The notes under the pieces were generated by a model. That model had not been told where the DNA came from. It ran no database searches and worked only from the letters and a program-made list of their open reading frames with translations. DNA of 64,000 bases, from sequence record NC_014467.1; one strand, written 5' to 3'. The translations under genes were made by a program, and so were the position numbers. Of this stretch, positions 2,546-48,876 are shown one piece after another. Every line of letters starts with the position of its first letter. The stretch's first letter is position 1. The stretch comes from Escherichia phage RB16.

Positions 2546-2712
2546 AATATTTTTCAACATGCGTAGTTGAGGTGGACAATCTGGAGAAGCAATCAAACAA
2601 TCCAGGCGAGACATAACGCGACGGTATCCGTCATACTCAAACTTGATTTTAGGCGGTACGTAGTTCACGTTAATTGCGTTGCGCGTGTTAATGTTCGCTT
2701 CGTACTCAGGGA

Positions 2713-3234
2713 TCACGAACTCTCGCCGCGATGTTCGATGTGCTCCGTGATATCCTCAACAGTCTTATCAAGGTCCAGAGATTCAGCATCTTCCTTGATA
2801 ATAGTCAAATCTACAGGCAGTGTCAACAGTCTTTTCACTCCGCTGATATCTTCGATACGAGAATCATACGCAAGGGTAACATGCGGTTTGTAGTTGTCAA
2901 AATCGTAAGTCGCTCCGGCATCCATCGCATCATTGAAACGGCTATGCAGATAATCAGACTCCAGAACACCGACGATAGTGTTACCGTATTTTGTGTCCCA
3001 CTTCTCTACGTCAACCAGTCGGGCAGGTTCAGAGATACCAGAGGCAGGGAACAAATCAACCGTCTTACGGCTATACACAATCGTTGTATGAAGTTTTTCA
3101 GCAGACACCGGATTCTCTACACCCAGAAGTTTTTGCACTTGTGCAAGCGCTTCACAGGAAGCCTGATCGAACTTCGCACACATATAGATCCCCGAATCAA
3201 CTACGGGTTTCGCAACTTCAATAAAACTTTTCAT
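2713..3234 (-). CDS. 57B: gp57B-like protein (assigned by position next to gp57A/gp1)
   Basis: Synteny with T4 57B-57A-1-3 order; size 173 aa; no motif recognised. Confidence 0.45.
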   Translation of the reverse strand: MKSFIEVAKPVVDSGIYMCAKFDQASCEALAQVQKLLGVENPVSAEKLHTTIVYSRKTVDLFPASGISEPARLVDVEKWDTKYGNTIVGVLESDYLHSRFNDAMDAGATYDFDNYKPHVTLAYDSRIEDISGVKRLLTLPVDLTIIKEDAESLDLDKTVEDITEHIEHRGESS

Positions 3235-19075: not shown

Positions 19076-19939
19076 ATGGCATATCAAACAGGTAAAAAAT
19101 TAATTGACGTGGGGCAGATCGGCAACCCGTCAACTGGTGACCCGCTGTATGACGGCGGTGTTAAACTTAACGAAATCATCACCAACGTGTATAATGCGTT
19201 CGGTGATGTGCGTTTGCTGACTGCAAATGATGGTGTTGGTACAATGCTGCTTCATGCAACTGGATATTTCCAGAAGTTGCCAAGAACGTATTATTCAGCA
19301 AACCCGATCGAACTGGGTTCATTGCATGATATGGATACAGCAACAGGGCCAATTACGGTTGTTCTTCCGTCTGGTAAGGCTGGCGAAGGGTGCTATTTCA
19401 TAAATAGTAACGGTAGTATTTCTGTTGATCGTCCTGTTGTATTTCGTCCTCAAGTTGGCGATAACATCAAAGGGGTTCAGGATCAGCTTTATATCACTTC
19501 TCCTTACACCCAGATTAAATTATGGTGTGTGAAGAAAGAAGGTTCAGTAACCACATGGGATTATTCAGTCGAATCTATGTTCGGATCTAAAACAATGCCC
19601 GTGGATACTACCAAACTAATTTTGAAAGCATCACCGACCGCAATTCCTTTATTCGGTTACAGTGAATTCAGCGGGGCTAAGTTGCTCGTATATGCTGAAA
19701 ATATGACAGGTACAGTCAACAAAATGGCTGAACTTCTCCTGTCTGTGGATCGTATCGCAAGGGGCGTATATTCTACGGAATATGCTGTACTGAAAAATAG
19801 CGATGATGACATGTATTCACTTACTTTCACTGTCGGTGCTGGTGACATTGTATATGCAAACGTCCAATCGGTACTCGAAGATCGAATTAAGTTCTCGATT
19901 AAAGCGGTTGACACCATTAAATCAGGGATCGCAGCATGA
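19076..19939 (+). CDS. 9: gp9 baseplate wedge tail fibre connector
   Basis: 287 aa, order and size. Confidence 0.85.
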   Translation: MAYQTGKKLIDVGQIGNPSTGDPLYDGGVKLNEIITNVYNAFGDVRLLTANDGVGTMLLHATGYFQKLPRTYYSANPIELGSLHDMDTATGPITVVLPSGKAGEGCYFINSNGSISVDRPVVFRPQVGDNIKGVQDQLYITSPYTQIKLWCVKKEGSVTTWDYSVESMFGSKTMPVDTTKLILKASPTAIPLFGYSEFSGAKLLVYAENMTGTVNKMAELLLSVDRIARGVYSTEYAVLKNSDDDMYSLTFTVGAGDIVYANVQSVLEDRIKFSIKAVDTIKSGIAA

Positions 19940-21753
19940 AACAAGAAATTATTATTGGTAACGTGGTTGATGATGGCGCTGGCGATTACTTACGCCGTGG
20001 TGGTCAGAAAACAAACGCTAACTTTACCGAACTATACGAAAAGCTGGGTGATGGGGAGATCCCACACCCAGCGGGTGCATGGAAAACACATTCAGCACCG
20101 ACTCTGAACCCGATTTTCGGTGATTCATGGGCGCTGAATACCAGCAACAACCGTATTACTGTAAACCTCCCTAAAGGCGGCGTAGGCGATTATAACAAGG
20201 TTATTCGTCTGCGTGACGTATGGAGTAAATGGGCTGTAAACAACGTCCGTATTGTTCCTGCAACTGGTGATACCATCAAAGGATCACCAACTTACAAAGA
20301 ACTGTACAAAGATTTCATGGATGTTGAGTTAGTTTATTGTGCGCCTGGTCGTTGGGAATATGTCGAAAACAAACAGGTTGACAAAATCACAACTTCCGAT
20401 CTGGCTACTGTAGCAAAAGAAACATATATTGCTACACAAGGACAGACAGATTTCCCGAATGTGTTTGGCCCTGGTAACTCGTACAACGTCCGTGCTCTGG
20501 AAGTTTACTATCGTGGTAACTTGCTGTACATCGACGACAAAAACGGATTTGTTGAAGCAAACAGCGATTATGGTTCACCTGGTACAAACCCTGGAGAATT
20601 GATTGACCTTGATGGTACTAACATACGCCTTAAACGTCCGTGTAACGCTGGAGACACGCTTCAATTCGTAACCTATATGGATGGTATAGCGACATGGCGA
20701 TCGACGTATGAGGCGCATACTATGCGCGTATACAACACGGGTGATACTGAACTGGTAAGCGTACCTGGTGAAATCTGGGTTGGCAACCTTGCAACCAAAA
20801 AAGAATTTACCACTGCTGAATTCGGGATCAGTTCTCGTGTATTGATTAATCCGAACTCTTTCGAACTGCTGTTGAACGGTCGCCAACTTGTTAAAGCAGG
20901 TGACGCGGATCTTCCTACATTCGTGTGTGAAGGGGCAGAAGGTTATGATGAAGATAGCTGTTTAGCTAACTCCGGTGCGTGGGTTCCTTCTGGACAGGAC
21001 TACAGTTTGATCTTTGTTGATTCCATTGTAACAGGTATCAAATTCAGTCAACCTCTTGAAAGTCGCGATGTTGTTACGATCCGTTGGTTCAATAACGATA
21101 TCGGAACTGTAATGGAATGGGAAGGTGTTGGCGGTATTAAAGAGCATACCGATAAAATCTATCTGAACAACGAAGAAGAGTTAACCCTAGTTGGACGGAT
21201 TGAATATACCGACTATAACAACCCGTCGCAGAAAACGATGCGTAAAATTACGGAACCTTTCAGCGGTCGATTGCTGGATCTGCAAGCGTTTTTTGATGTG
21301 ATTCATCCGATCGGGACGATCTACGAAAACGCGCATAACGACGCAAACCCAGGCGAATACATGGGCTTCGGTATCTGGAAACGGTACGCAGAAGGTCAAT
21401 TTATCGCTGGTTGGACAACTGATGCAGCAGATAGCGATTTTGGTTTAAACAACAACGATTTGGATGGTTCTGGACAGCCTACACACACAGCAGGTGGTTC
21501 TGGTGGTGAACGTGGTTATGAAATTCATCCGATCAACGTTCCACAAATTGAATCAACCGATAAAGTTCTGATTAAGGACGACAACGGGATCATTATCATT
21601 GGTGGCTGTCAGGTTGACCCAGATGCAACAGGGCCAGGATACACTAAATACCGTGAGGATGTATTGAAAGTAAATCAGGGTAACACTACCCCAGATAAAC
21701 TTAAAACGCTCCCTCCGTATATTACTGCACATCGCTGGATAAGGGTAGCATAA
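19936..21753 (+). CDS. 10: gp10 baseplate wedge subunit and tail pin
   Basis: 605 aa, order and size. Confidence 0.85.
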   Translation: MKQEIIIGNVVDDGAGDYLRRGGQKTNANFTELYEKLGDGEIPHPAGAWKTHSAPTLNPIFGDSWALNTSNNRITVNLPKGGVGDYNKVIRLRDVWSKWAVNNVRIVPATGDTIKGSPTYKELYKDFMDVELVYCAPGRWEYVENKQVDKITTSDLATVAKETYIATQGQTDFPNVFGPGNSYNVRALEVYYRGNLLYIDDKNGFVEANSDYGSPGTNPGELIDLDGTNIRLKRPCNAGDTLQFVTYMDGIATWRSTYEAHTMRVYNTGDTELVSVPGEIWVGNLATKKEFTTAEFGISSRVLINPNSFELLLNGRQLVKAGDADLPTFVCEGAEGYDEDSCLANSGAWVPSGQDYSLIFVDSIVTGIKFSQPLESRDVVTIRWFNNDIGTVMEWEGVGGIKEHTDKIYLNNEEELTLVGRIEYTDYNNPSQKTMRKITEPFSGRLLDLQAFFDVIHPIGTIYENAHNDANPGEYMGFGIWKRYAEGQFIAGWTTDAADSDFGLNNNDLDGSGQPTHTAGGSGGERGYEIHPINVPQIESTDKVLIKDDNGIIIIGGCQVDPDATGPGYTKYREDVLKVNQGNTTPDKLKTLPPYITAHRWIRVA

Positions 21754-22415
21754 TGACACAATTTATTTCAAAGACAAGGGAGGGGGCGAAAGTCCCTTCC
21801 CGTGAAGCAGACTTTTTGCAATATGAAATGGGTACTAAAGACCCTCTTATCGGTGGTAAACGTACTATCGGTGGTGCAAACGTCGATCAGCTTCGTAAAG
21901 GGGTAGATTATCCCAACGTGCAATCAGCAATCGATGACCTGTATACTCTGTCTCAACAGATCCCGATCAACGGGGTTATCATGATGACAGAAGACAGTCC
22001 TCCGACCGCTGTTCAGCAGGTAGAGACTATAACTTTTGATGGTACTGTACAAAACACAGATCCAGACCAGACAAAAGCAACAATTCATGTTTATGGATTC
22101 CCGTTCGTGTTCGATAACACAACGAACGCATCAACCGTATGCGAAACAGTCTACAACAAGTTTACTGAATTTGTCAATGACGAAAAATATTTCGATCTGG
22201 TAACTCGCAAGGGCTTGAACGGTGAAATTCTGGAAGTTCGGTTTATTGATTGTGTTCCGCATCCGGTAACAAATACTACTGAAAACGGAATATCTATGGT
22301 AGGAACAATCGATGTACAGGCACGATCTGGTTACGGTACGTGGTCGAAACTGGGTGAGGTGGATCTTGCTGTAACTCCGGCAGTTCCAATTTTCTACTTT
22401 AAACGTATTGCGTAA
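21753..22415 (+). CDS. 11: gp11 baseplate wedge subunit and tail pin
   Basis: 220 aa, order and size. Confidence 0.85.
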   Translation: MTQFISKTREGAKVPSREADFLQYEMGTKDPLIGGKRTIGGANVDQLRKGVDYPNVQSAIDDLYTLSQQIPINGVIMMTEDSPPTAVQQVETITFDGTVQNTDPDQTKATIHVYGFPFVFDNTTNASTVCETVYNKFTEFVNDEKYFDLVTRKGLNGEILEVRFIDCVPHPVTNTTENGISMVGTIDVQARSGYGTWSKLGEVDLAVTPAVPIFYFKRIA

Positions 22416-22424
22416 GGATAACCA

Positions 22425-23816
22425 ATGAGTAACAACACAATTAACCACGTAAGCGATGCGTCCGTTTACGTGACTTTTGATCCGGCAGGTACGCAATGGC
22501 CCTCGACTTTCGTCAACGTACAGCAAGCATTAGCCTCTATAGGCCCGTGGGCGCGTACTGATGTTGGTTTGCCTAACGCGGCTCCTGGTATGCGTGGTAT
22601 TGCTGCTATTGCTACCGAGGCGATGATTGACGCAGGGACAGACAACGAAACGATCGTTACTCCTGCATTGCTGGCATATCGTTTACAAAATCCTCATGCG
22701 TCACAAACCGTTTGGGGATATACCAAATACGCAACTGATGCGGAAGCGGTTGATGTCGCAAACGATCTGGTTTCATTAACTCCGCGTTCGATCAATGTGG
22801 TTTTCAATACCAGACACGCATCAGAAACCGTGTGGGGTTCTTCTAAACTGTCAACGACAGCACAGGCAACAGCGGGTACTGATGATACAACCTCAATGAC
22901 ACCATTGAAGGTAAAACAAGCAATCTCTGCTCTGGTTCCGGTACAATCCAACGCAACAGAAAGCGCGTTCGGTTTGGTTCAGTTGGCTACGGTTTCAGAA
23001 GTCCGCGCGGGTACTATTCGCGACGGTTTCGCAATTTCACCGTATACGTTTATTCGTCTGAATGCAACAGAAAGCGATCTGGGTATTGTTCGCCTAGCAA
23101 GTCAGGCAGAAGTAAACGCAGGAACTGATGATACCAAAGCCGTTACCCCGTTAAAACTGGCTAACCTTAAAGGCTCCGGTGGTTCTTTCGGTTTGGTTAA
23201 ATTATCAACAGAAGTAAACGCAGGGCTGGCTAACACTGCTCTTTCTGCGGGTGCTAACGTAGTACCGAGCAACCGTGACAGCGCTATCACTGGTGGTGCA
23301 TTGTATCAGGGTTCAGTTGCTGCTGCTAATAAATACCAGACACATAGCGATATCGAAGCATCGTTACCGATTGGCTGTATGATGATGGCTGCATTTAACT
23401 CCGATTACGGAAACCTGTGTATTGCCAACGGTCGCGGGATGTATACATACGAATACCCAGAACTGTTTGCACGTATAGGCTATACGTATGGCGGTAGTGG
23501 TAACATCTTTAATCTTCCTGATATGCGCGGCGTAGTTGCTCGCGGATTTGATGCGGGACGTGGTTTAGACCCAGGTCGTGGATTTGGTACATACCAGCAT
23601 CACGAAGTACAGTCTCATGAGCATCCATTGCAGATGATCTATCAGTCTGGTGGTAACTTACCATCATGGCAGTGTGTTTATGAACTGCGTACTGCTGAGA
23701 AGAATGACCAGAAATTATACTGGCCTGATCCATCACTCAGTAAAGCAATGGCTGTAGGCGGTAACGAAACGCGAATGAAGAACCTTGCGGTCAACTATGT
23801 AATTCGAGTACGATAA
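22425..23816 (+). CDS. 12: gp12 short tail fibre protein
   Basis: 463 aa; repetitive SQTVWGYTKYATDAEA / SETVWGSSKLSTTAQA motifs; position before wac. Confidence 0.8.
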   Translation: MSNNTINHVSDASVYVTFDPAGTQWPSTFVNVQQALASIGPWARTDVGLPNAAPGMRGIAAIATEAMIDAGTDNETIVTPALLAYRLQNPHASQTVWGYTKYATDAEAVDVANDLVSLTPRSINVVFNTRHASETVWGSSKLSTTAQATAGTDDTTSMTPLKVKQAISALVPVQSNATESAFGLVQLATVSEVRAGTIRDGFAISPYTFIRLNATESDLGIVRLASQAEVNAGTDDTKAVTPLKLANLKGSGGSFGLVKLSTEVNAGLANTALSAGANVVPSNRDSAITGGALYQGSVAAANKYQTHSDIEASLPIGCMMMAAFNSDYGNLCIANGRGMYTYEYPELFARIGYTYGGSGNIFNLPDMRGVVARGFDAGRGLDPGRGFGTYQHHEVQSHEHPLQMIYQSGGNLPSWQCVYELRTAEKNDQKLYWPDPSLSKAMAVGGNETRMKNLAVNYVIRVR

Positions 23817-29438: not shown

Positions 29439-31778
<2,340 letters not shown>

Positions 31779-31796
31779 ATTAGAGGAAATTCTATA

Positions 31797-33788
31797 ATGG
31801 CTTTACAATCTCCAGGTATTGAAACAAAAGAAACATCGGTACAATCTACCGTTGTTCGAAATTCAACTGGTCGCGCTGCCATTGTTGGTAAATTTTCATG
31901 GGGGCCAGCTTATCAGATCCGTCAGATTTCTAACGAAGTCGAACTGGTAAACTATTTTGGTTCCCCAGACAACCTAACCGCTGATTATTTCATGAGTGCT
32001 GTTAACTTCTTGCAGTACGGTAATGATCTCCGTGTGGTTCGTGTTGTCGATAAAGATGCCGCAAAAAACGCAAGCGCAATTTTTAACCAGATCAAAACAA
32101 CCATTGCTTCGCAGGGTTCCAACTACACCGTTGGCGACGTAATTAAGGTAAAATATAGCAACAACGTAGTTGAAGAAAATGGTAAAGTGTCCAAAGTTGA
32201 CAGTAACGGCAAAATCCTTGCGGTAGTCATCCCAAGCGAAAAAATCGTTGCTCGTGCAAAACAAATCGGGACTTATCCAGATATTTCTACTGGCTGGACT
32301 ACTGAAATCGTTTCTCAGTCTTCCGGTGTGTCTGCGTCAATCACGATCGATGGTATCGAAAGCGATTCTGGTATCACTCTGTTGAACCTGGATATTGCTA
32401 AAGAAACCATTCAAGGAACTGCGTTCCAGACACTGACCCAGAAATACCAGATCCCGTCTGTTGTGGCTCTGTATCCTGGCGAACTGGGTTCTACTGTACA
32501 GGTGGAGATTATCTCCAAAGCTGCTTACGATTCTGGCGCTATGATTTCCGGTTTCCCTTCTGGGATCTCCGTTAAAAACAGCGGTCGCTCTGTGATGACT
32601 TATGGTCCACAGACCGAAAACCAGTACGCTTTTGTTGTGCGTCGTGGTGGTATTGTACAAGAATCTTTCATCGTGTCAACAGAAAAAACCGACAAAGATA
32701 TCTACGGCGTAAACATCTATATGGATGACTTTTTCGCTAACGGTGGTTCACAGTACGTATTCGGTACTTCTATGAACTGGCCTAAAGGCTTCTCCGGTAT
32801 TCTAGAATTTGGTGGTGGTTTGTCCTCAAACGACACCGTAGGCGCTGATGAACTGATGACTGGTTGGGATATGTTCGCAGACCGCGAAGCCCTGCACGTT
32901 CCTCTGCTGATTGCTGGTGCTTGCGCTGGTGAAACTGTAGAAGTAATGTCAACCGTTCAGAAACACGTTATCTCGATCGGTGACGAACGTCAGGATTGTA
33001 CTGTGTTTGTATCGCCTCCGCGTTCTCTTCTGGTGAACATTCCTCTTGCTCAGGCAGTGGATAACATCATTGAATGGCGTATGGGATATACAATCAGTGG
33101 TAACACTCCGGTAGACAACAACCTGAACGTAAGTTCAAGCTATGGCTTCCTGGATGGTAACTATAAATATCAGTATGATAAATACAATGACGTGAACCGC
33201 TGGGTTCCGCTGGCAGGTGATATCGCTGGCCTGTGTGTTTACACTGATAGCGTTGCGCAACCGTGGATGTCTCCGGCTGGTTACAACCGTGGTCAGATCC
33301 GTAACTGCATTAAACTGGCTATTGAACCGCGTACTGCACACCGTGACGCGATGTATCAAGTTCAGATTAACCCGGTAACAGGTTTTGCAGGTGGCTCTGG
33401 TTTCGTTCTGTTCGGTGATAAAACACTGACTAATGTTCCGAGTCCGTTCGATCGTATCAACGTTCGTCGCTTGTTCAACATGATCAAGAAAGACATCGGG
33501 GATAACGCGAAATACAAACTGTTTGAAAACAACGACGATTTCACCCGTGCTTCGTTCCGTATGGATACTGGTCAGTACATGACGAATATTCGTGCGCTGG
33601 GTGGTTGCTATGATTACCGTGTAATCTGCGATATCACGAACAACACGCCAGATGTAATCGATCGTAACGAGTTTGTAGCGACTGTTTACGTGAAACCGCC
33701 ACGTTCTATCAACTACATCACTCTGAACTTCGTAGCAACGTCTACAGGCGCAGATTTCGATGAATTGGTAGGGCCACAAGCCGTATAA
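31797..33788 (+). CDS. 18: gp18 tail sheath protein
   Basis: 663 aa, order, size, N-terminus MALQSPGIETKETS typical of gp18. Confidence 0.95.
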   Translation: MALQSPGIETKETSVQSTVVRNSTGRAAIVGKFSWGPAYQIRQISNEVELVNYFGSPDNLTADYFMSAVNFLQYGNDLRVVRVVDKDAAKNASAIFNQIKTTIASQGSNYTVGDVIKVKYSNNVVEENGKVSKVDSNGKILAVVIPSEKIVARAKQIGTYPDISTGWTTEIVSQSSGVSASITIDGIESDSGITLLNLDIAKETIQGTAFQTLTQKYQIPSVVALYPGELGSTVQVEIISKAAYDSGAMISGFPSGISVKNSGRSVMTYGPQTENQYAFVVRRGGIVQESFIVSTEKTDKDIYGVNIYMDDFFANGGSQYVFGTSMNWPKGFSGILEFGGGLSSNDTVGADELMTGWDMFADREALHVPLLIAGACAGETVEVMSTVQKHVISIGDERQDCTVFVSPPRSLLVNIPLAQAVDNIIEWRMGYTISGNTPVDNNLNVSSSYGFLDGNYKYQYDKYNDVNRWVPLAGDIAGLCVYTDSVAQPWMSPAGYNRGQIRNCIKLAIEPRTAHRDAMYQVQINPVTGFAGGSGFVLFGDKTLTNVPSPFDRINVRRLFNMIKKDIGDNAKYKLFENNDDFTRASFRMDTGQYMTNIRALGGCYDYRVICDITNNTPDVIDRNEFVATVYVKPPRSINYITLNFVATSTGADFDELVGPQAV

Positions 33789-33832: not shown

Positions 33833-34318
33833 ATGCTTACTGACATTTTACGCGCCTTTGAATCCGGTGATTTCGCACGTCCGAACTTGTTCGAAGTAGA
33901 GATCCCGTATCTGGGCAAAAACTTTAAATTCAAATGTAAAGCGGCAACCATGCCAGCGGCTACAGTTGAAAAAGTTCCTGTAGGCTACCAAAACCGCAAA
34001 ATAAACCTTGCTGGTGACCGTACCTATGATGACTGGACAATCACAATCTATAACGATGACGCGCACAATACGAGAAACGCACTGGTAGCATGGTCAAATA
34101 TGCTGCACGGTATGGGTGATCAAATTAGCGGTGATATTCCAGCGAACTACAAAAAAACTGCTACGGTGAAACAGAAAAACCGTAACGAAGAGATAACCGC
34201 AGATCACACCATTCATGGTTTATTCCCAACTAACGTGGGTGAGGTTACTTTAGACTGGGATTCGAATAATGAAGTATCAACTTTCGAGTGTACCTTTGCG
34301 CTGGACTGGTGGGAATAA
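33833..34318 (+). CDS. 19: gp19 tail tube protein
   Basis: 161 aa, order and size. Confidence 0.9.
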   Translation: MLTDILRAFESGDFARPNLFEVEIPYLGKNFKFKCKAATMPAATVEKVPVGYQNRKINLAGDRTYDDWTITIYNDDAHNTRNALVAWSNMLHGMGDQISGDIPANYKKTATVKQKNRNEEITADHTIHGLFPTNVGEVTLDWDSNNEVSTFECTFALDWWE

Positions 34319-34323
34319 AGAGT

Positions 34324-34331
34324 TATAAATA
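34324..34331 (+). promoter_or_regulatory. T4-type late promoter motif TATAAATA upstream of gp20, followed by a hairpin at 34333-34350
   Basis: Exact TATAAATA 42 nt before ATG at 34373. Confidence 0.55.
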
Positions 34332-34372
34332 CAGGGGTAGCAATACCCCTATCATTATTTTTCGGAGTTACT

Positions 34373-35947
34373 ATGAACTTTTTGGGCTTTGGCAATGTAC
34401 TTAGCTTTTTCAAGAATTTCGCCCGTGAGGATGAAATTGAACTTGAACAGCAATTAAAAAATGATACAGGTTCGGTCGCGCCTCCTAAAAATAATGATGG
34501 TGCTTACGAGATCGAAACCGACCTGAATAACCAGAAATATGCTGGCGTATTCCAACAATTTTATTCTGGACAAGATCCAGCGATCCAAAACAAAGAACAA
34601 TTAATTAATACGTATCGCGGTATTATGTCTTATCCAGAAGTTGAAAACGCAGTGTCGGAAATTATCGACGATGCGATCGTTAACGAACAGGGTAAAGATA
34701 TCATCACCCTGGATCTGGCTAAAACGAATTTTAGTAAGGCTATTCAAGATAAGATCGTTGAAGAGTTCGACAACGTTCTAAATATCTATGACTTTGATAA
34801 CATGGGCGCACGTCTGTTCCGTGATTGGTATGTGGATTCCCGTATATACTTCCATAAAATCATGCACAAAGACGAAACCAAAGGTATCCGCGAACTGCGT
34901 CAACTTGACCCGCGTTGCATGGAACTGATCCGAGAATCTATCACAGAAACCCTTGATGGTGGCGTGAAAGTATTCCGGGGTTATCGCGAATTTTTCGTGT
35001 ATAGCGCTCCTAAAGCTGGCTATACATACAACGGACAGATCTACCAGGCAAACCAGAAGATTAAGATCCCGCGCTCCGCTATCGTGTACGCTCATTCCGG
35101 TCTGGAAGATTGCAGCAACAATATTATCGGATATCTTCACCGCGCTGTCAAGCCTGCAAACCAATTGCGTTTGCTTGAAGATGCGATGGTGATCTACCGT
35201 ATTACCCGTGCTCCTGAACGCCGTGTGTTCTATATCGACGTTGGACAGATGGGCGGTAACAAAGCGACTCAGTACGTGAATAACATTGCACAGGGCTTAA
35301 AAAACCGTGTTGTGTATGATGCCCGTACAGGTACTGTTAAAAACCAGCAGAACAACCTGTCAATGACAGAAGATTACTGGTTGATGCGTCGTGACGGTAA
35401 AGCGATTACAGAGGTTTCTACGCTTCCAGGCGGTCAGAACTTCTCTGATATGGATGATATCAAATGGTTTAACCGTAAGCTATATGAAGCCCTGCGTGTG
35501 CCATTAAGCCGTATGCCTCGCGATGACGGGGGTATGCAAATTGGTGGTGGTGGTGAAATCACCCGTGATGAACTCAAATTTAACAAGTTCATACGCACAC
35601 TGCAAATTCAGTTCAGTCCTGTTCTGTCAGATCCGTTAAAAACGAACCTGATTGCGAAAAAAGTCATCACCGAAGATGAATGGGACGAGAACGTTAGCAA
35701 AATTTCGTTTATCTTCCAGCAGGATTCATATTATGCGGAAGTAAAAGACATCGAGATCATGGAACGCCGTCTAACGTTGATGTCTCAGGTCGAGGGTGTA
35801 GTTGGGAAATATGTCTCCCATAAATACATCATGAAAGAGATTCTTCGAATGTCCGACGAGGATATTGACGAACAAGCGAAATTGATCGAAGAAGAATCTA
35901 AAGAAGAACGTTTTAAAAATCCAGAAGCGGAAGAGGAAAACTTTTGA
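34373..35947 (+). CDS. 20: gp20 portal vertex protein
   Basis: 524 aa (same as T4 gp20), order. Confidence 0.95.
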   Translation: MNFLGFGNVLSFFKNFAREDEIELEQQLKNDTGSVAPPKNNDGAYEIETDLNNQKYAGVFQQFYSGQDPAIQNKEQLINTYRGIMSYPEVENAVSEIIDDAIVNEQGKDIITLDLAKTNFSKAIQDKIVEEFDNVLNIYDFDNMGARLFRDWYVDSRIYFHKIMHKDETKGIRELRQLDPRCMELIRESITETLDGGVKVFRGYREFFVYSAPKAGYTYNGQIYQANQKIKIPRSAIVYAHSGLEDCSNNIIGYLHRAVKPANQLRLLEDAMVIYRITRAPERRVFYIDVGQMGGNKATQYVNNIAQGLKNRVVYDARTGTVKNQQNNLSMTEDYWLMRRDGKAITEVSTLPGGQNFSDMDDIKWFNRKLYEALRVPLSRMPRDDGGMQIGGGGEITRDELKFNKFIRTLQIQFSPVLSDPLKTNLIAKKVITEDEWDENVSKISFIFQQDSYYAEVKDIEIMERRLTLMSQVEGVVGKYVSHKYIMKEILRMSDEDIDEQAKLIEEESKEERFKNPEAEEENF

Positions 35948-36192
35948 TGAAAGAATTTATCGAAGCAATCAAAAGCGGCGATCTGGTGGAGGCTAAGAAG
36001 CAATTCTACTCCATCATGGAAGACCGTACCGAAGCCCTTCGCCAAGAAATGCGCGTTGAAATTGCAGAAGCAGTCCGAATCGAAGGTGAAACCGACGAAG
36101 ACGACAGCGACGATGATAAAGACGACAAAGACGGCGAAAAAGGCGAAAAAGACAAAAAGCCGTCTGAAAAAGACGACAAAGCCGACGAATAA
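35944..36192 (+). CDS. 67: gp67 prohead core protein
   Basis: 82-aa highly acidic protein (DEDDSDDDKDDKDGEKGEKDKK) between portal and protease genes. Confidence 0.75.
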   Translation: MMKEFIEAIKSGDLVEAKKQFYSIMEDRTEALRQEMRVEIAEAVRIEGETDEDDSDDDKDDKDGEKGEKDKKPSEKDDKADE

Positions 36193-45879: not shown

Positions 45880-46449
45880 ATGAACAAATTAAACCATGAA
45901 TGTCTGAAAGATTTGTCAGATGGTAAAGAAATCGAGAACGTTATATTCCTCGATATTGACGGCGTGTTAAATAATATGCGCTCTATGAAATTCGGTGAAC
46001 ATATGGACATCGAATGTGCGCGACATCTACGCCGGATCGTCAACCATGCAAATTGTGATATCGTTGTTTCTTCAACGTGGCGCATGGGGAACACGACACA
46101 CACCCTACGCGAAATCCTGTACCCCTGGGGATTGTATCGCGTTATAGGCCGAACCTGTAGCAACATGGTTGGTAATCGTGTGCGTGGTGATGAAATAAAG
46201 GCGTGGATCGATACGTTCGGATGTAAGAACTATATGATCCTTGATGATGATTGTGATATGTTGCCAGAACAAAAAGATCACTTCGTCAGAACAGATCCTG
46301 AAATCGGGCTTACCGAAGAACAATCAACCTTTGCGATCCGCAATATATTTGGAGTAACAACCCCGTTTTGTCCTGAATGCAACGGCTACGGGCGCGTGAA
46401 CCAATACGATAAATGCGGTAGCTGTAACGGTAAAATATTGCGTCTATAA
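45880..46449 (+). CDS. HAD-like phosphatase-fold protein with C-terminal zinc ribbon
   Basis: VIFLDIDGVLNN (HAD motif I DxDGV) near N-terminus; C-terminal CPECNGYG...CGSCNGK. Confidence 0.55.
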   Translation: MNKLNHECLKDLSDGKEIENVIFLDIDGVLNNMRSMKFGEHMDIECARHLRRIVNHANCDIVVSSTWRMGNTTHTLREILYPWGLYRVIGRTCSNMVGNRVRGDEIKAWIDTFGCKNYMILDDDCDMLPEQKDHFVRTDPEIGLTEEQSTFAIRNIFGVTTPFCPECNGYGRVNQYDKCGSCNGKILRL

Positions 46450-46995: not shown

Positions 46996-47496
46996 ATGCT
47001 TCTATTCGAATTCAATGATGTATTCTCGAAGTTTAGTGATGCAATTCAGGCAAAATTCGGCAAACGTCCCGAAAACATGACAGAAACAGAATACAATACT
47101 GCTGTTTCGTCCCTGGTTCGTACAGATTTCTATGAAAAGCTGGCGATCGAGGTTTTGGGCTGGGATATGATGAAATGGGGTATGACTTATCGCGATCGCG
47201 AAGTCGGTTTTATTCTCGTCAACGAGGTTAAAAGCCCGTTGTGGGTGAATAACCAAAAAATTGCATACATGGATAAAGTGTGTGCGGAAATGGGTATTGT
47301 ACGTCTGGATTTCTGGATGTGTAAAGATCTGAATGAACTGAAAGGCCATGCTTATCGATGCCCTCTGATTTCTCGCAACGAGAAACATCGTCAAGCATGG
47401 GATAGCGCTGGCAAGTATCGCAGTGTATATCTGAATGATGACATGAACATCACTATCCAGGATGTGAACCGCGCCTTTGCGGATTACACACCATAA
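46996..47496 (+). CDS. hypothetical protein (166 aa)
   Basis: ORF track; terminator downstream. Confidence 0.5.
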   Translation: MLLFEFNDVFSKFSDAIQAKFGKRPENMTETEYNTAVSSLVRTDFYEKLAIEVLGWDMMKWGMTYRDREVGFILVNEVKSPLWVNNQKIAYMDKVCAEMGIVRLDFWMCKDLNELKGHAYRCPLISRNEKHRQAWDSAGKYRSVYLNDDMNITIQDVNRAFADYTP

Positions 47497-47499
47497 ACA

Positions 47500-47532
47500 A
47501 AAAAGGGAACCGCAATGGTTCCCTTTCTTTTT
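47500..47532. terminator. bidirectional rho-independent terminator between convergent genes
   Basis: AAAGGGAACC-gcaa-TGGTTCCCTTTCTTTTT. Confidence 0.7.
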
Positions 47533-47974
47533 ACAGCTTTCTAACTTCTTTCAACGCTTCTTCTTTGCTACCAACGAAGAGGATCGCTTTTCCTCCCGCT
47601 TTCCTGAAAGGTAATACTGCTTTCGCTCTGTCATCGAACAGTACACCCTGACTTGCATAGGCTGCTTTTTCGCCGCTGCTTTTGGTGTAGTGGAATTCAG
47701 GCAGATACCCAAACAGTTTAACAAGCGCTTTACGTTTTTGTTCTGCAACTTTTTCGGAATTGTATTTACCGACACTGGTCAAGATCGCAACCTCGCCTAA
47801 TGTTCTCATATGACAGAACAGCGCAACACCCTCTTCAATCGGTTTTAAATTTTCGTAGAAGTCGGTTTTAGATATTGCCTCTTTTGCCTTTTTGAGTTCA
47901 TCCTCTGGCATTCTTGCCGGATCACCATACATCGGTATGAAAGAACCTTCCCAATCGAACAGTACACCATCCAT
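47531..47974 (-). CDS. HAD-superfamily 5'(3')-deoxyribonucleotidase-like protein; N-terminus apparently truncated by a frameshift
   Basis: Begins MDGVLFDWEG; in-frame upstream codons read N-F-F-F-D before the ATG (47975-47989); upstream ATG at 47993 is in another frame across a T6 run. Confidence 0.55.
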   Translation of the reverse strand: MDGVLFDWEGSFIPMYGDPARMPEDELKKAKEAISKTDFYENLKPIEEGVALFCHMRTLGEVAILTSVGKYNSEKVAEQKRKALVKLFGYLPEFHYTKSSGEKAAYASQGVLFDDRAKAVLPFRKAGGKAILFVGSKEEALKEVRKL

Positions 47975-48042
47975 ATCAAAGAAAAAATTTCATATCAATT
48001 CCTCGCTTTGTGTGTGCATCATATTCATATATGTTCTCATTG

Positions 48043-48876
48043 TCAACCCCATGTGTCTGTTTTAGGTGCGTATGCTGCAACTTTAGCCACTAATTCCTTA
48101 TCAAGCTGATCGATAGATTTCTGTGCTTTGCCTTTTGCCTTAACTTTGATGTAGTTAGACTTGACAACGAACATACCGCCTTTGTCAGATTTCTTGATTT
48201 CGCTATCGATACCAACTTTGTTAAAGCTGATCCAGATATCACCATCCATGTATTGTTTCAGTGAATCACCCATGTTCAGGATCTTAGCCATAGTAAGCGC
48301 TGCTCCTTCGTGGGTATCCATAAGGATCTCTTTAGGAACCACACGGTCACGTTTCAGGTTCTGCTGCATAGCAATATGAACATCGTTCATTACCCAAACG
48401 ATATGGATGTTTTCTTTATGATATCCCAGCGTTTCAACGTCACGGGCAATGCTTGCCAGCTTGCTCATGCTTTTTAGGGTAACGTCGAAAATCAGGTTTG
48501 GTTTGCGGTCTTCTGGTGCTGCTGCAATACCAGCATAAACACGCGCCTGGTTTTTGTTGGATACGTTGAAAACGTCTGCGATCACATGATGCAGGGTTGC
48601 CACGTTATCCGGGTTTTTCAAGTTCATGGTTTTAACATCATGACCAGTTTTAGCTTTGATTTCTGCCGCCAGTTTGGTGCTACCCATTACCAGCTTTTTC
48701 AGTGCGTCAACGTCCAGTGTGATTCCTTCGATACCTAACAGTTTTTCGAGGGTAAAACCTTTACCGGAACCCGCACCGCCAGCCAGGATCACAACCTGAC
48801 CAAATTTAGGATATGCCTTGCCGCCAAACGTAATCAACGCTTCGTCAAGGGATACAAAGTCTTTGAATGATTTCAT
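48043..48876 (-). CDS. P-loop-like nucleotide-binding protein (277 aa), possible kinase
   Basis: Glycine-rich VVILAGGAGSGKGF near N-terminus (atypical Walker A, no S/T after Lys). Confidence 0.5.
   Translation of the reverse strand: MKSFKDFVSLDEALITFGGKAYPKFGQVVILAGGAGSGKGFTLEKLLGIEGITLDVDALKKLVMGSTKLAAEIKAKTGHDVKTMNLKNPDNVATLHHVIADVFNVSNKNQARVYAGIAAAPEDRKPNLIFDVTLKSMSKLASIARDVETLGYHKENIHIVWVMNDVHIAMQQNLKRDRVVPKEILMDTHEGAALTMAKILNMGDSLKQYMDGDIWISFNKVGIDSEIKKSDKGGMFVVKSNYIKVKAKGKAQKSIDQLDKELVAKVAAYAPKTDTWG

What the first reader, a model, noticed from the sequence alone, without database searches (positions are those of the whole stretch)
47972..47995. Apparent frameshift in a T6 run at the start of the NT5C-like HAD gene
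The ORF begins MDGVLFDWEG, which lacks the first, nucleophilic Asp of the HAD motif DxDG. The in-frame codons just upstream read N-F-F-F-D, and an ATG at 47993 followed by AAA and a T6 run is in a different frame. Removing one T would give MKFFFDMDGVLFDWEG with a complete motif. This is either a sequencing error in a homopolymer, a recently inactivated gene, or slippage-dependent expression.
Basis: seen in the sequence. Interest (0 to 1): 0.45.

Follow-up and report, generated by a model that had tools for sequence, protein, structure and literature searches.

The report
One-base frameshift in phage phosphatase gene
One extra T in a run of Ts, found only in this phage RB16 sequence, puts the start codon of a conserved nucleotide phosphatase gene out of frame; this is an ordinary sequencing error or recent mutation, not a special expression mechanism.

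Summary
On the minus strand a good ribosome-binding site (GAGGA, 48004-48000) and ATG 47993 are followed by AAA, a T6 run (47987-47982) and a stop after five codons (M-K-F-F-L-TGA). The long ORF (47974-47531) is in the +1 frame and begins MDGVLFDW. It therefore lacks strand beta-1 and the nucleophilic Asp of the HAD motif DxDG.

The window is Escherichia phage RB16, and the 147-aa product is its RefSeq protein YP_003858526.1. Every relative examined has T5 and encodes MKFFFDMDGVLFDW (153-155 aa). That covers 174 phage records, 3 IMG/VR contigs, 2 Logan contigs and 31 protein homologues down to about 35% identity. The extra T is the only difference from Citrobacter phage KKP_3664 across 1,089 nt. 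It is also the only coding frameshift found in the window.

The repaired protein models confidently (pLDDT 97) as an NT5C-type 5'(3')-deoxyribonucleotidase.

Without reads I cannot separate a base-calling error (about 0.5) from a very recent slippage mutation (about 0.4). Programmed recoding is not supported (about 0.04), although T6 happens to create a CUU-UGA +1 shift-prone site. The finding is ordinary and of low interest, but the RB16 annotation should be flagged.

The parts
48018..48046 (-). sigma-70/early-type promoter-like site (TTGACA-17-TATGAT, 11 of 12) just upstream of the HAD gene. Its -35 hexamer overlaps the stop codon of the upstream zeta-toxin-like kinase gene.
   Evidence: consensus scan only; function not shown. 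The sequence is conserved in relatives.
48000..48004 (-). Shine-Dalgarno GAGGA, 6 nt upstream of ATG 47993
   Evidence: Miller annotates a ribosome_binding_site at the homologous place.
47991..47993 (-). Ancestral (true) start codon ATG of the HAD gene, now out of frame with the body of the gene
   Evidence: It is the annotated start of the 153-aa CDS in KKP_3664, RB43, Miller, GuL6 and IME-CF2.
47982..47987 (-). T6 run carrying the one extra T (T5 in all relatives)
47976..47981 (-). CTT TGA: the last sense codon and premature stop of the 5-codon reading frame from ATG 47993. It is by coincidence the core of a prfB-type +1 shift-prone site.
   Evidence: sequence. The comparison with prfB is from general knowledge.
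47975..47977 (-). GAT codon for the nucleophilic Asp (D6 of the intact protein).
   Evidence: D6 is invariant in 32 of 32 sequences.
47531..47974 (-). ORF as it stands (147 aa, MDGVLFDW...). This is RB16 YP_003858526.1, the body of an NT5C-type HAD 5'(3')-deoxyribonucleotidase lacking residues 1-6.
47499..47529 (.). Bidirectional intrinsic-terminator-like hairpin between the HAD gene and the convergent paralogue
   Evidence: Miller annotates a terminator at the homologous place.

Best explanation
The T6 run is a one-base insertion private to the deposited RB16 sequence, in an otherwise intact, independently expressed early-type gene for an NT5C-type HAD 5'(3')-deoxyribonucleotidase. The natural form of the gene has T5 and starts at ATG 47993, giving MKFFFDMDGVLFDW (153 aa). 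As written, ribosomes starting at the well-placed ATG stop after five codons. The annotated 147-aa ORF has no Shine-Dalgarno sequence of its own. It also lacks the whole first beta-strand and the Asp that forms the phospho-enzyme intermediate, so it cannot be an active phosphatase.

I think the single most likely cause is a homopolymer length miscall in the deposited sequence, meaning the phage really has T5 and a normal gene. A genuine, very recent replication-slippage mutation is almost as likely.

Shown: the insertion, that it is found in no other sequence, and the family and fold of the repaired protein. Inferred: error versus mutation, and the inactivity of the short form.
For: - T5 is found in all five relatives aligned.
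- None of 174 phage records matches the 61-nt T6 stretch. The closest ones align it to 60 bases, and others to 63 or 61, which is in frame relative to T5.
- The only IMG/VR contig with T6 is the window's own genome, 100% identical over 13,016 nt. Three other IMG/VR contigs have T5.
- Two Logan contigs that carry the identical neighbouring protein have T5.
- The extra T is the sole difference from KKP_3664 in 1,089 nt, 47347-48435. There has therefore been essentially no evolutionary time for decay.
- The promoter-like site, SD, ATG and terminator are all intact.
- Single-base indels are common in GenBank records of this genus. The RB43 reference and an independent RB43 re-sequencing differ by 15 one-base indels in 47 kb, and the reference record's own annotation splits or shortens several genes in the same region (the link between particular indels and particular genes was not traced). 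IME-CF2 and GuL6 have essential genes (terminase, prohead protease) annotated in pieces.
- D6, D8, G9 and V10 are invariant in all 32 sequences aligned.
- In the AlphaFold model (pLDDT 97.2), residues 2-5 form strand beta-1, followed directly by D6.
Against: - The RB16 window is otherwise clean. Comparison with 56 Miller CDSs showed no other break of this kind; the only other incomplete matches were diverged, absent, at the window edge, or explained by a 477-bp deletion. tblastn of relatives' ORFs found no other frameshift.
- The other window-private one-base indels checked (six of them) all lie between genes, as expected of real, selected variation and not of random errors. The record's error rate therefore appears low.
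- The single hit falls in a dispensable accessory gene, although most of the window encodes essential virion proteins. That placement favours a real mutation by roughly threefold.
- T runs of 5-6 are classic spontaneous frameshift sites for T4-type replication (general knowledge).
- No reads are available, so nothing here tests the error hypothesis directly.
Confidence: 0.5

Rival explanations
1. Genuine recent frameshift. A +1T replication-slippage event in the T5 run occurred in the RB16 lineage, most likely during laboratory propagation on E. coli B. It created a null or very leaky allele of a dispensable accessory gene. Possible products are the pentapeptide MKFFL and, by termination-reinitiation at the ATG 1 nt after the stop, some inactive 147-aa protein. 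Rare +1 slips at CUU-UGA or RNA-polymerase slippage on the run might give a small amount, perhaps 1-2% or less, of full-length enzyme.
For: - It is the only coding frameshift in an otherwise clean 64-kb window, and it sits in a non-essential gene.
- The same window carries a bona fide 477-bp deletion, relative to Miller and KKP_3664, that removes parts of two accessory genes. Real gene loss therefore does occur in this genome.
- Identity to KKP_3664 apart from the T fits a very young lesion.
- Homopolymer +1/-1 slippage is the textbook spontaneous frameshift of T4-type phages (general knowledge).
Against: - There is no independent sequence with T6.
- A lesion with zero accompanying substitutions in 1,089 nt is exactly what a base-calling error looks like.
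- Records of this genus demonstrably contain many single-base indel discrepancies.
Confidence: 0.42
2. Programmed or exploited recoding. RB16 expresses the full-length enzyme from the T6 allele by +1 ribosomal frameshifting at CUU-UGA (prfB-like, giving MKFFLDMDG...), or by transcriptional slippage on the T6 run. Synthesis would then be kept low or tied to release-factor 2 activity.
For: - T6 places CUU UGA in the zero frame. The +1 frame after it reads GAT ATG GAT GGT, restoring D-M-D-G.
- All expression signals are intact.
Against: - The configuration is not conserved: 0 of 174 relatives share it and all homologues are encoded in one frame.
- No SD-like stimulator lies 3 nt upstream of CUU. 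The only SD is 18 nt upstream.
- The stop context is UGA-U, not the weak UGA-C.
- A run of six T is shorter than the 8-9 or more that efficient transcriptional slippage usually needs (general knowledge).
- The CUU-UGA motif is an automatic by-product of shifting TTC TTT GAT by one base.
Confidence: 0.04
3. The short form is the genuine, functional protein. It would start at ATG 47974 and have a non-catalytic role, for example nucleotide binding, like the catalytically dead paralogue next door.
For: A conserved HAD-like neighbour (46996-47496) has lost the catalytic residues yet is strongly conserved. Non-catalytic HAD-like proteins therefore exist in these phages.
Against: - No orthologue starts at this Met, which is the internal M7 in all of them.
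- No SD precedes ATG 47974.
- The truncation removes core strand beta-1, so proper folding is doubtful.
- The body of the gene is identical to the intact KKP_3664 allele, so there is no sign of adaptation to a new role.
Confidence: 0.02

Closest known systems
Orthologous CDS of Pseudotevenvirus phages: RB43ORF240c (YP_239216.1), Miller CPTMiller_00232, KKP3664_000060 (UES35599.1), IME-CF2 gp149, GuL6_235
   Same: Same locus, same neighbours, same promoter, SD and terminator. Protein identity is 97-100% over residues 7-153. KKP_3664 is identical at the DNA level over 1,089 nt except for one T.
   Different: They have T5 and one continuous 153-aa frame starting MKFFFDMDG. The window has T6 and a broken frame.
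5'(3')-deoxyribonucleotidases of the HAD superfamily (Pfam NT5C, PF06941): human mdN (1MH9, 4L6A), cdN (2I7D), S. epidermidis 3BWV
   Same: - The family profile hits them at E 1e-12 to 4e-7, with motif I aligned.
- The AlphaFold model's best PDB matches are these enzymes (Foldseek prob 1.0, TM 0.6-0.67).
- DxDG, the motif II Ser/Thr, the Lys and the DD motifs are conserved.
   Different: The phage protein is smaller (153 aa against about 195) with a reduced cap. The window sequence alone is below Pfam's gathering score (18.3 against 24.8 bits). Substrate specificity is untested.
prfB (release factor 2) programmed +1 frameshift site CUU UGA C
   Same: The same CUU-UGA core in the zero frame, with the needed product in the +1 frame.
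   Different: There is no SD-like stimulator 3 nt upstream, the stop is followed by U and not C, and the site is not conserved in any relative. It arises trivially from the one-base insertion. It resembles the prfB site only in this hexamer.
Spontaneous homopolymer frameshifts in T4 (Streisinger slippage; rII and lysozyme hot spots), and homopolymer miscalls in sequence assemblies
   Same: A +1 change in the length of a short A:T run that breaks a reading frame.
   Different: None. This appears to be an ordinary instance of one or the other.

Membership tests
HAD superfamily phosphatase | Motif I: hydrophobic strand followed by DxDx(T/V/G), the first Asp being the nucleophile | tested here: not met
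   The ORF as written starts at M7 (MDGVL...) and lacks F3-F5 and D6. The motif is complete (FFFDMDGV) only if one T is removed. It is invariant in all 31 homologues.
HAD superfamily phosphatase | Motifs II-IV (Ser/Thr, Lys, acidic pair) | tested here: met
   ILTSVG with S73 nearly invariant. K86/K109 and D120-D121 are invariant in 32 sequences.
HAD superfamily phosphatase | Rossmann-like alpha/beta core fold | tested here: met
   AlphaFold2 model of the intact allele (P0001): pLDDT 97.2, pTM 0.90. 61 PDB matches at E<=0.001, the listed ones nearly all HAD-fold proteins.
NT5C / 5'(3')-deoxyribonucleotidase (PF06941) | Match to the Pfam model above its gathering score | tested here: inconclusive
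   The repaired window protein scores 18.3 bits against a cutoff of 24.8 (E 0.0022). 26 of 32 family members match at E<=0.01, best 2.2e-11.
NT5C / 5'(3')-deoxyribonucleotidase (PF06941) | Closest solved relatives are deoxyribonucleotidases, by sequence profile and by fold | tested here: met
   All 11 profile hits are NT5C-type proteins: 3bwv 1.2e-12, mdN about 1e-10, cdN about 8e-8, plus one esterase designed on that scaffold. The Foldseek top hits are the same proteins.
NT5C / 5'(3')-deoxyribonucleotidase (PF06941) | Mg2+-dependent dephosphorylation of dNMPs | not testable with these tools
Programmed +1 ribosomal frameshift (prfB type) | Shift-prone codon followed by an in-frame stop (CUU UGA) | tested here: met
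   CTT TGA at 47981-47976 in the frame of ATG 47993.
Programmed +1 ribosomal frameshift (prfB type) | Internal SD-like stimulator about 3 nt upstream of the shift codon | tested here: not met
   The sequence upstream of CTT is ATGAAATTTTTT. The only GAGGA is 18 nt away.
Programmed +1 ribosomal frameshift (prfB type) | Frameshift configuration conserved among orthologues | tested here: not met
   0 of 174 phage records, 0 of 3 other IMG/VR contigs and 0 of 2 Logan contigs have it. All protein homologues are in a single frame.
Transcriptional-slippage-dependent gene | Long homopolymer, typically 8-9 or more A/T (general knowledge) | tested here: not met
   The run is six T. The longest run anywhere in the window is 7.

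The most novel reading that the evidence does not exclude
T6 is real in RB16, and the phage makes a small, release-factor-2-sensitive amount of full-length deoxyribonucleotidase (MKFFLDMDG...) by +1 frameshifting at the newly created CUU-UGA five codons into the message. This would be a natural example of a spontaneous homopolymer mutation instantly creating a prfB-like recoding site.
Probability: 0.03. Interest if true: 0.4.

Novelty: already known. Interest (0 to 1): 0.1.

Why it matters
The main value is practical. The RefSeq protein YP_003858526.1, named "5'-3' deoxyribonucleotidase" of phage RB16, is an N-terminally truncated product that lacks the catalytic nucleophile. It should be flagged as a frameshifted gene or pseudogene, or the sequence should be corrected.

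If the mutation is real, RB16 is a natural knock-out of this accessory gene. It could be compared with RB43 or KKP_3664 to ask what the enzyme does for the phage. The finding bears on no open question about recoding or HAD enzymology.

Tried and rejected
- **Independent T6 sequences.** IMG/VR returned only the window's own genome. JGI metagenome scans found neither T6 nor T5, so they say nothing either way.
- **Exact-product lookup.** The look-up of encoding contigs found no contig encoding the 147-aa product, although the cluster lookup later showed it is RB16's own protein.
- **Re-sequencing of RB16.** I hoped that Logan assemblies carrying the identical neighbouring protein RB16p228 would be RB16 itself. 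They are different phages at 97-98% identity, with T5.
- **RB16 annotation.** RB16 accessions are not in the annotated phage collection.
- **Literature.** Nothing was found on RB16 frameshifts or on this enzyme in Pseudotevenvirus. The Petrov et al. 2010 review (PMC2993671) lists RB16 as 176,789 bp (HM134276), one base more than the 176,788-bp copy seen here. It does not give the sequencing method.
- **-1 frameshifting.** Rejected, because the target frame is +1 and no X XXY YYZ heptamer lies in the zero frame.
- **An error-riddled assembly.** Rejected, because no other coding frameshift was found.

Full report
**Observation.** On the minus strand the sequence reads GAGGA (48004-48000), ATTGAT, ATG (47993-47991), AAA, TTTTTT (47987-47982), C, TTT, GAT (47977-47975), ATG (47974-47972), GAT GGT GTA CTG TTC GAT TGG. 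From ATG 47993 the frame is M-K-F-F-L-stop, with TGA at 47978-47976. The long ORF (47531-47974, 147 aa) is one base further on.

**Source of the window.** The window is a Pseudotevenvirus, an RB43-like T4-type phage. The 147-aa product is exactly ADJ55530.1 / YP_003858526.1, "5'-3' deoxyribonucleotidase [Escherichia phage RB16]", on a 176,788-bp contig. The flanking proteins are RB16 proteins too. The one IMG/VR contig that contains the T6 string is 176,788 bp long and 100% identical to the window over 13,016 nt, so it is the same genome and not an independent witness.

**Comparison with relatives.**
- KKP_3664, RB43 and Miller have T5, and their annotated CDS starts at the homologue of ATG 47993, giving MKFFFDMDGVLFDW, 153 aa. 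GuL6 and IME-CF2 agree.
- A 61-nt query across the site finds 174 phage records and none is identical. The nearest align 61 query bases to 60 record bases. More distant ones align to 63 or 61 bases, which is three bases more than the T5 form and so in frame.
- Three further IMG/VR contigs have the T5 string.
- Two Logan assemblies that carry the identical neighbouring protein have T5.
- At the protein level there are 51 homologues, and the full-length ones cover the N-terminus.
- In an alignment of 32 sequences reaching down to about 35% identity, D6, D8, G9 and V10 are invariant. Each protein has a short hydrophobic stretch before D6.

The short form is not the natural form.

**What the gene is.**
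- A profile of the family hits only NT5C-type proteins in the PDB: 3bwv at 1.2e-12, human mitochondrial mdN at about 1e-10, cytosolic cdN at about 8e-8, and one esterase designed on that scaffold. Motif I is aligned in these hits.
- 26 of 32 members match Pfam NT5C. The window protein alone is below the gathering score, 18.3 against 24.8 bits.
- AlphaFold2 on the intact allele gives pLDDT 97.2, with strand beta-1 at residues 2-5 followed immediately by D6.
- The best Foldseek matches are the same deoxyribonucleotidases, including their D41N and D12N nucleophile variants crystallised with substrates.

The protein is a small NT5C-type HAD phosphatase. The six missing residues are a core strand plus the residue that is phosphorylated during catalysis. 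From established HAD enzymology, the 147-aa form should be inactive. This is an inference and was not tested here.

**Expression signals.** A strong sigma-70-like site (TTGACA-17-TATGAT) sits at 48046-48018. The SD and ATG 47993 are intact, and a bidirectional hairpin terminator follows at 47529-47499. ATG 47974 has no SD, but it lies one base after the TGA of the five-codon frame, so some termination-reinitiation is conceivable (inference).

**How isolated the lesion is.** The extra T is the only difference from KKP_3664 in 1,089 nt, 47347-48435. Comparison with 56 annotated Miller CDSs showed no other break of this kind; the few other incomplete matches were diverged, absent, at the window edge, or explained by the 477-bp deletion described below. 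tblastn with relatives' ORFs of 90 aa or more found no other frameshift in the window. The other window-private one-base indels checked (six of them) all fall between genes. The window has 278 homopolymer runs of 5 or more bases and 55 of 6 or more, and only this one is discordant within a gene.

**Error or mutation?** I cannot decide this without reads.

Evidence for an error:
- A lone homopolymer-length difference in an otherwise identical kilobase is the signature of a miscall.
- Records of this genus contain many such discrepancies. The RB43 reference differs from the independently sequenced RB43-GVA by 15 one-base indels and 18 substitutions in 47 kb, and the reference record's own annotation splits or shortens several genes in the same region. 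I did not trace which indel affects which gene.
- IME-CF2 and GuL6 annotate essential genes (terminase large subunit, tail tube, prohead protease) in pieces.

Evidence for a real mutation:
- The RB16 window is otherwise clean.
- The hit is in a dispensable gene, although most of the window encodes essential virion proteins.
- The window also carries an undoubted 477-bp deletion affecting two accessory genes.
- Short A:T runs are the classic spontaneous frameshift sites of T4-type replication (general knowledge).

I put the probabilities at error about 0.5 and real recent mutation about 0.4.

**Recoding.** With T6 the zero frame ends in CUU UGA, the core of the prfB +1 site, and a +1 slip there would give MKFFLDMDG... 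with a complete motif. However, the motif is an automatic consequence of shifting TTC TTT GAT by one base. There is no SD-like stimulator 3 nt upstream, the stop context is UGA-U, six T is short for transcriptional slippage, and no relative shares the arrangement. At most this would give a leak of a per cent or so (inference from general knowledge). I put programmed recoding at about 0.04.

**Verdict.** This is an ordinary, record-private homopolymer indel in a known gene family. Interest is low. The useful outcome is that the RB16 annotation of this gene is a truncated product and should be flagged or corrected.

Noticed in passing
window 46996-47496 (+): The convergent neighbour, RB16 YP_003858525.1, is also named '5'-3' deoxyribonucleotidase'. 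It is a diverged paralogue of the HAD gene (hhalign 88%, E 3e-6 over 141 columns), but the aligned motif positions differ: FDMDGV becomes FEFNDV, ILTSVGK becomes ILVNEVK, and DDR becomes ISRN. It has no Pfam hit, yet it is about 95% conserved across 14 phage homologues in a cluster of 58 members. It is probably a conserved non-catalytic HAD-like protein, so the enzyme name looks wrong.
   Followed up: partly
window about 2717-2723 (minus-strand genes at 2546-3234): Relative to Miller and KKP_3664 the window lacks 477 bp. This removes the 3' end of the 57B-like gene that Miller annotates as 'RNA ligase' and the first two-thirds of the next gene (Miller CPTMiller_00189/00190). It is a real deletion in accessory genes, not a base-calling issue.
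   Followed up: partly
L006 (RB43 NC_007023 115000-162000) versus L016 (RB43-GVA HE858210.2): Two sequencings of the same phage differ by 15 single-base indels in 47 kb, several of them clustered within 20-70 nt. In the same region the reference record annotates several genes as split or shortened (hoc, ORF236, ORF250-252, ORF263-266) that are intact in RB43-GVA. The reference probably carries many base-calling errors, although individual indels were not mapped to individual genes.
   Followed up: partly
L008 (IME-CF2) 21383-22881, 31764-32099, 34156-35984; L007 (GuL6) 19607-20331: Essential genes are annotated in two pieces or truncated: uvsW, tail tube and terminase large subunit in IME-CF2, and prohead protease in GuL6. 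These are presumably sequencing frameshifts in those records.
   Followed up: no
window 48018-48046 (-): An 11-of-12 sigma-70-like promoter whose -35 hexamer TTGACA contains the stop codon of the upstream zeta-toxin-like P-loop kinase gene (48043-48876). The HAD gene may therefore be transcribed on its own as well as with the kinase.
   Followed up: no
window 45880-46449 (+): A protein combining a HAD_SAK_2 phosphatase domain (Pfam E 2e-29, the 'Swiss Army Knife' RNA-repair HAD) with a C-terminal DnaJ-type CxxCxGxG zinc finger. Three HAD-like genes thus sit within 2.1 kb, next to a Hoc-like gene and a zeta-like kinase.
   Followed up: no
OK210075.1 (Citrobacter phage KKP_3664), L004/L005: The record is titled 'complete genome' but is only 61.6 kb. 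It is largely collinear with most of this window of a roughly 177-kb Pseudotevenvirus genome, so it is a fragment.
   Followed up: no
phage records PQ657795, PQ657799, PQ657830: In some Klebsiella 'Roth' phage records, the feature annotated over the site that matches the start of this HAD gene is named 'anti-RM protein dam3'. Sibling records name it 5'-3' deoxyribonucleotidase. This is an annotation inconsistency.
   Followed up: no
PMC2993671, Table 2, versus the IMG/VR and NCBI contig: The 2010 review lists RB16 (HM134276) as 176,789 bp, while the copies seen here are 176,788 bp. This is a one-base discrepancy of unknown location.
   Followed up: no
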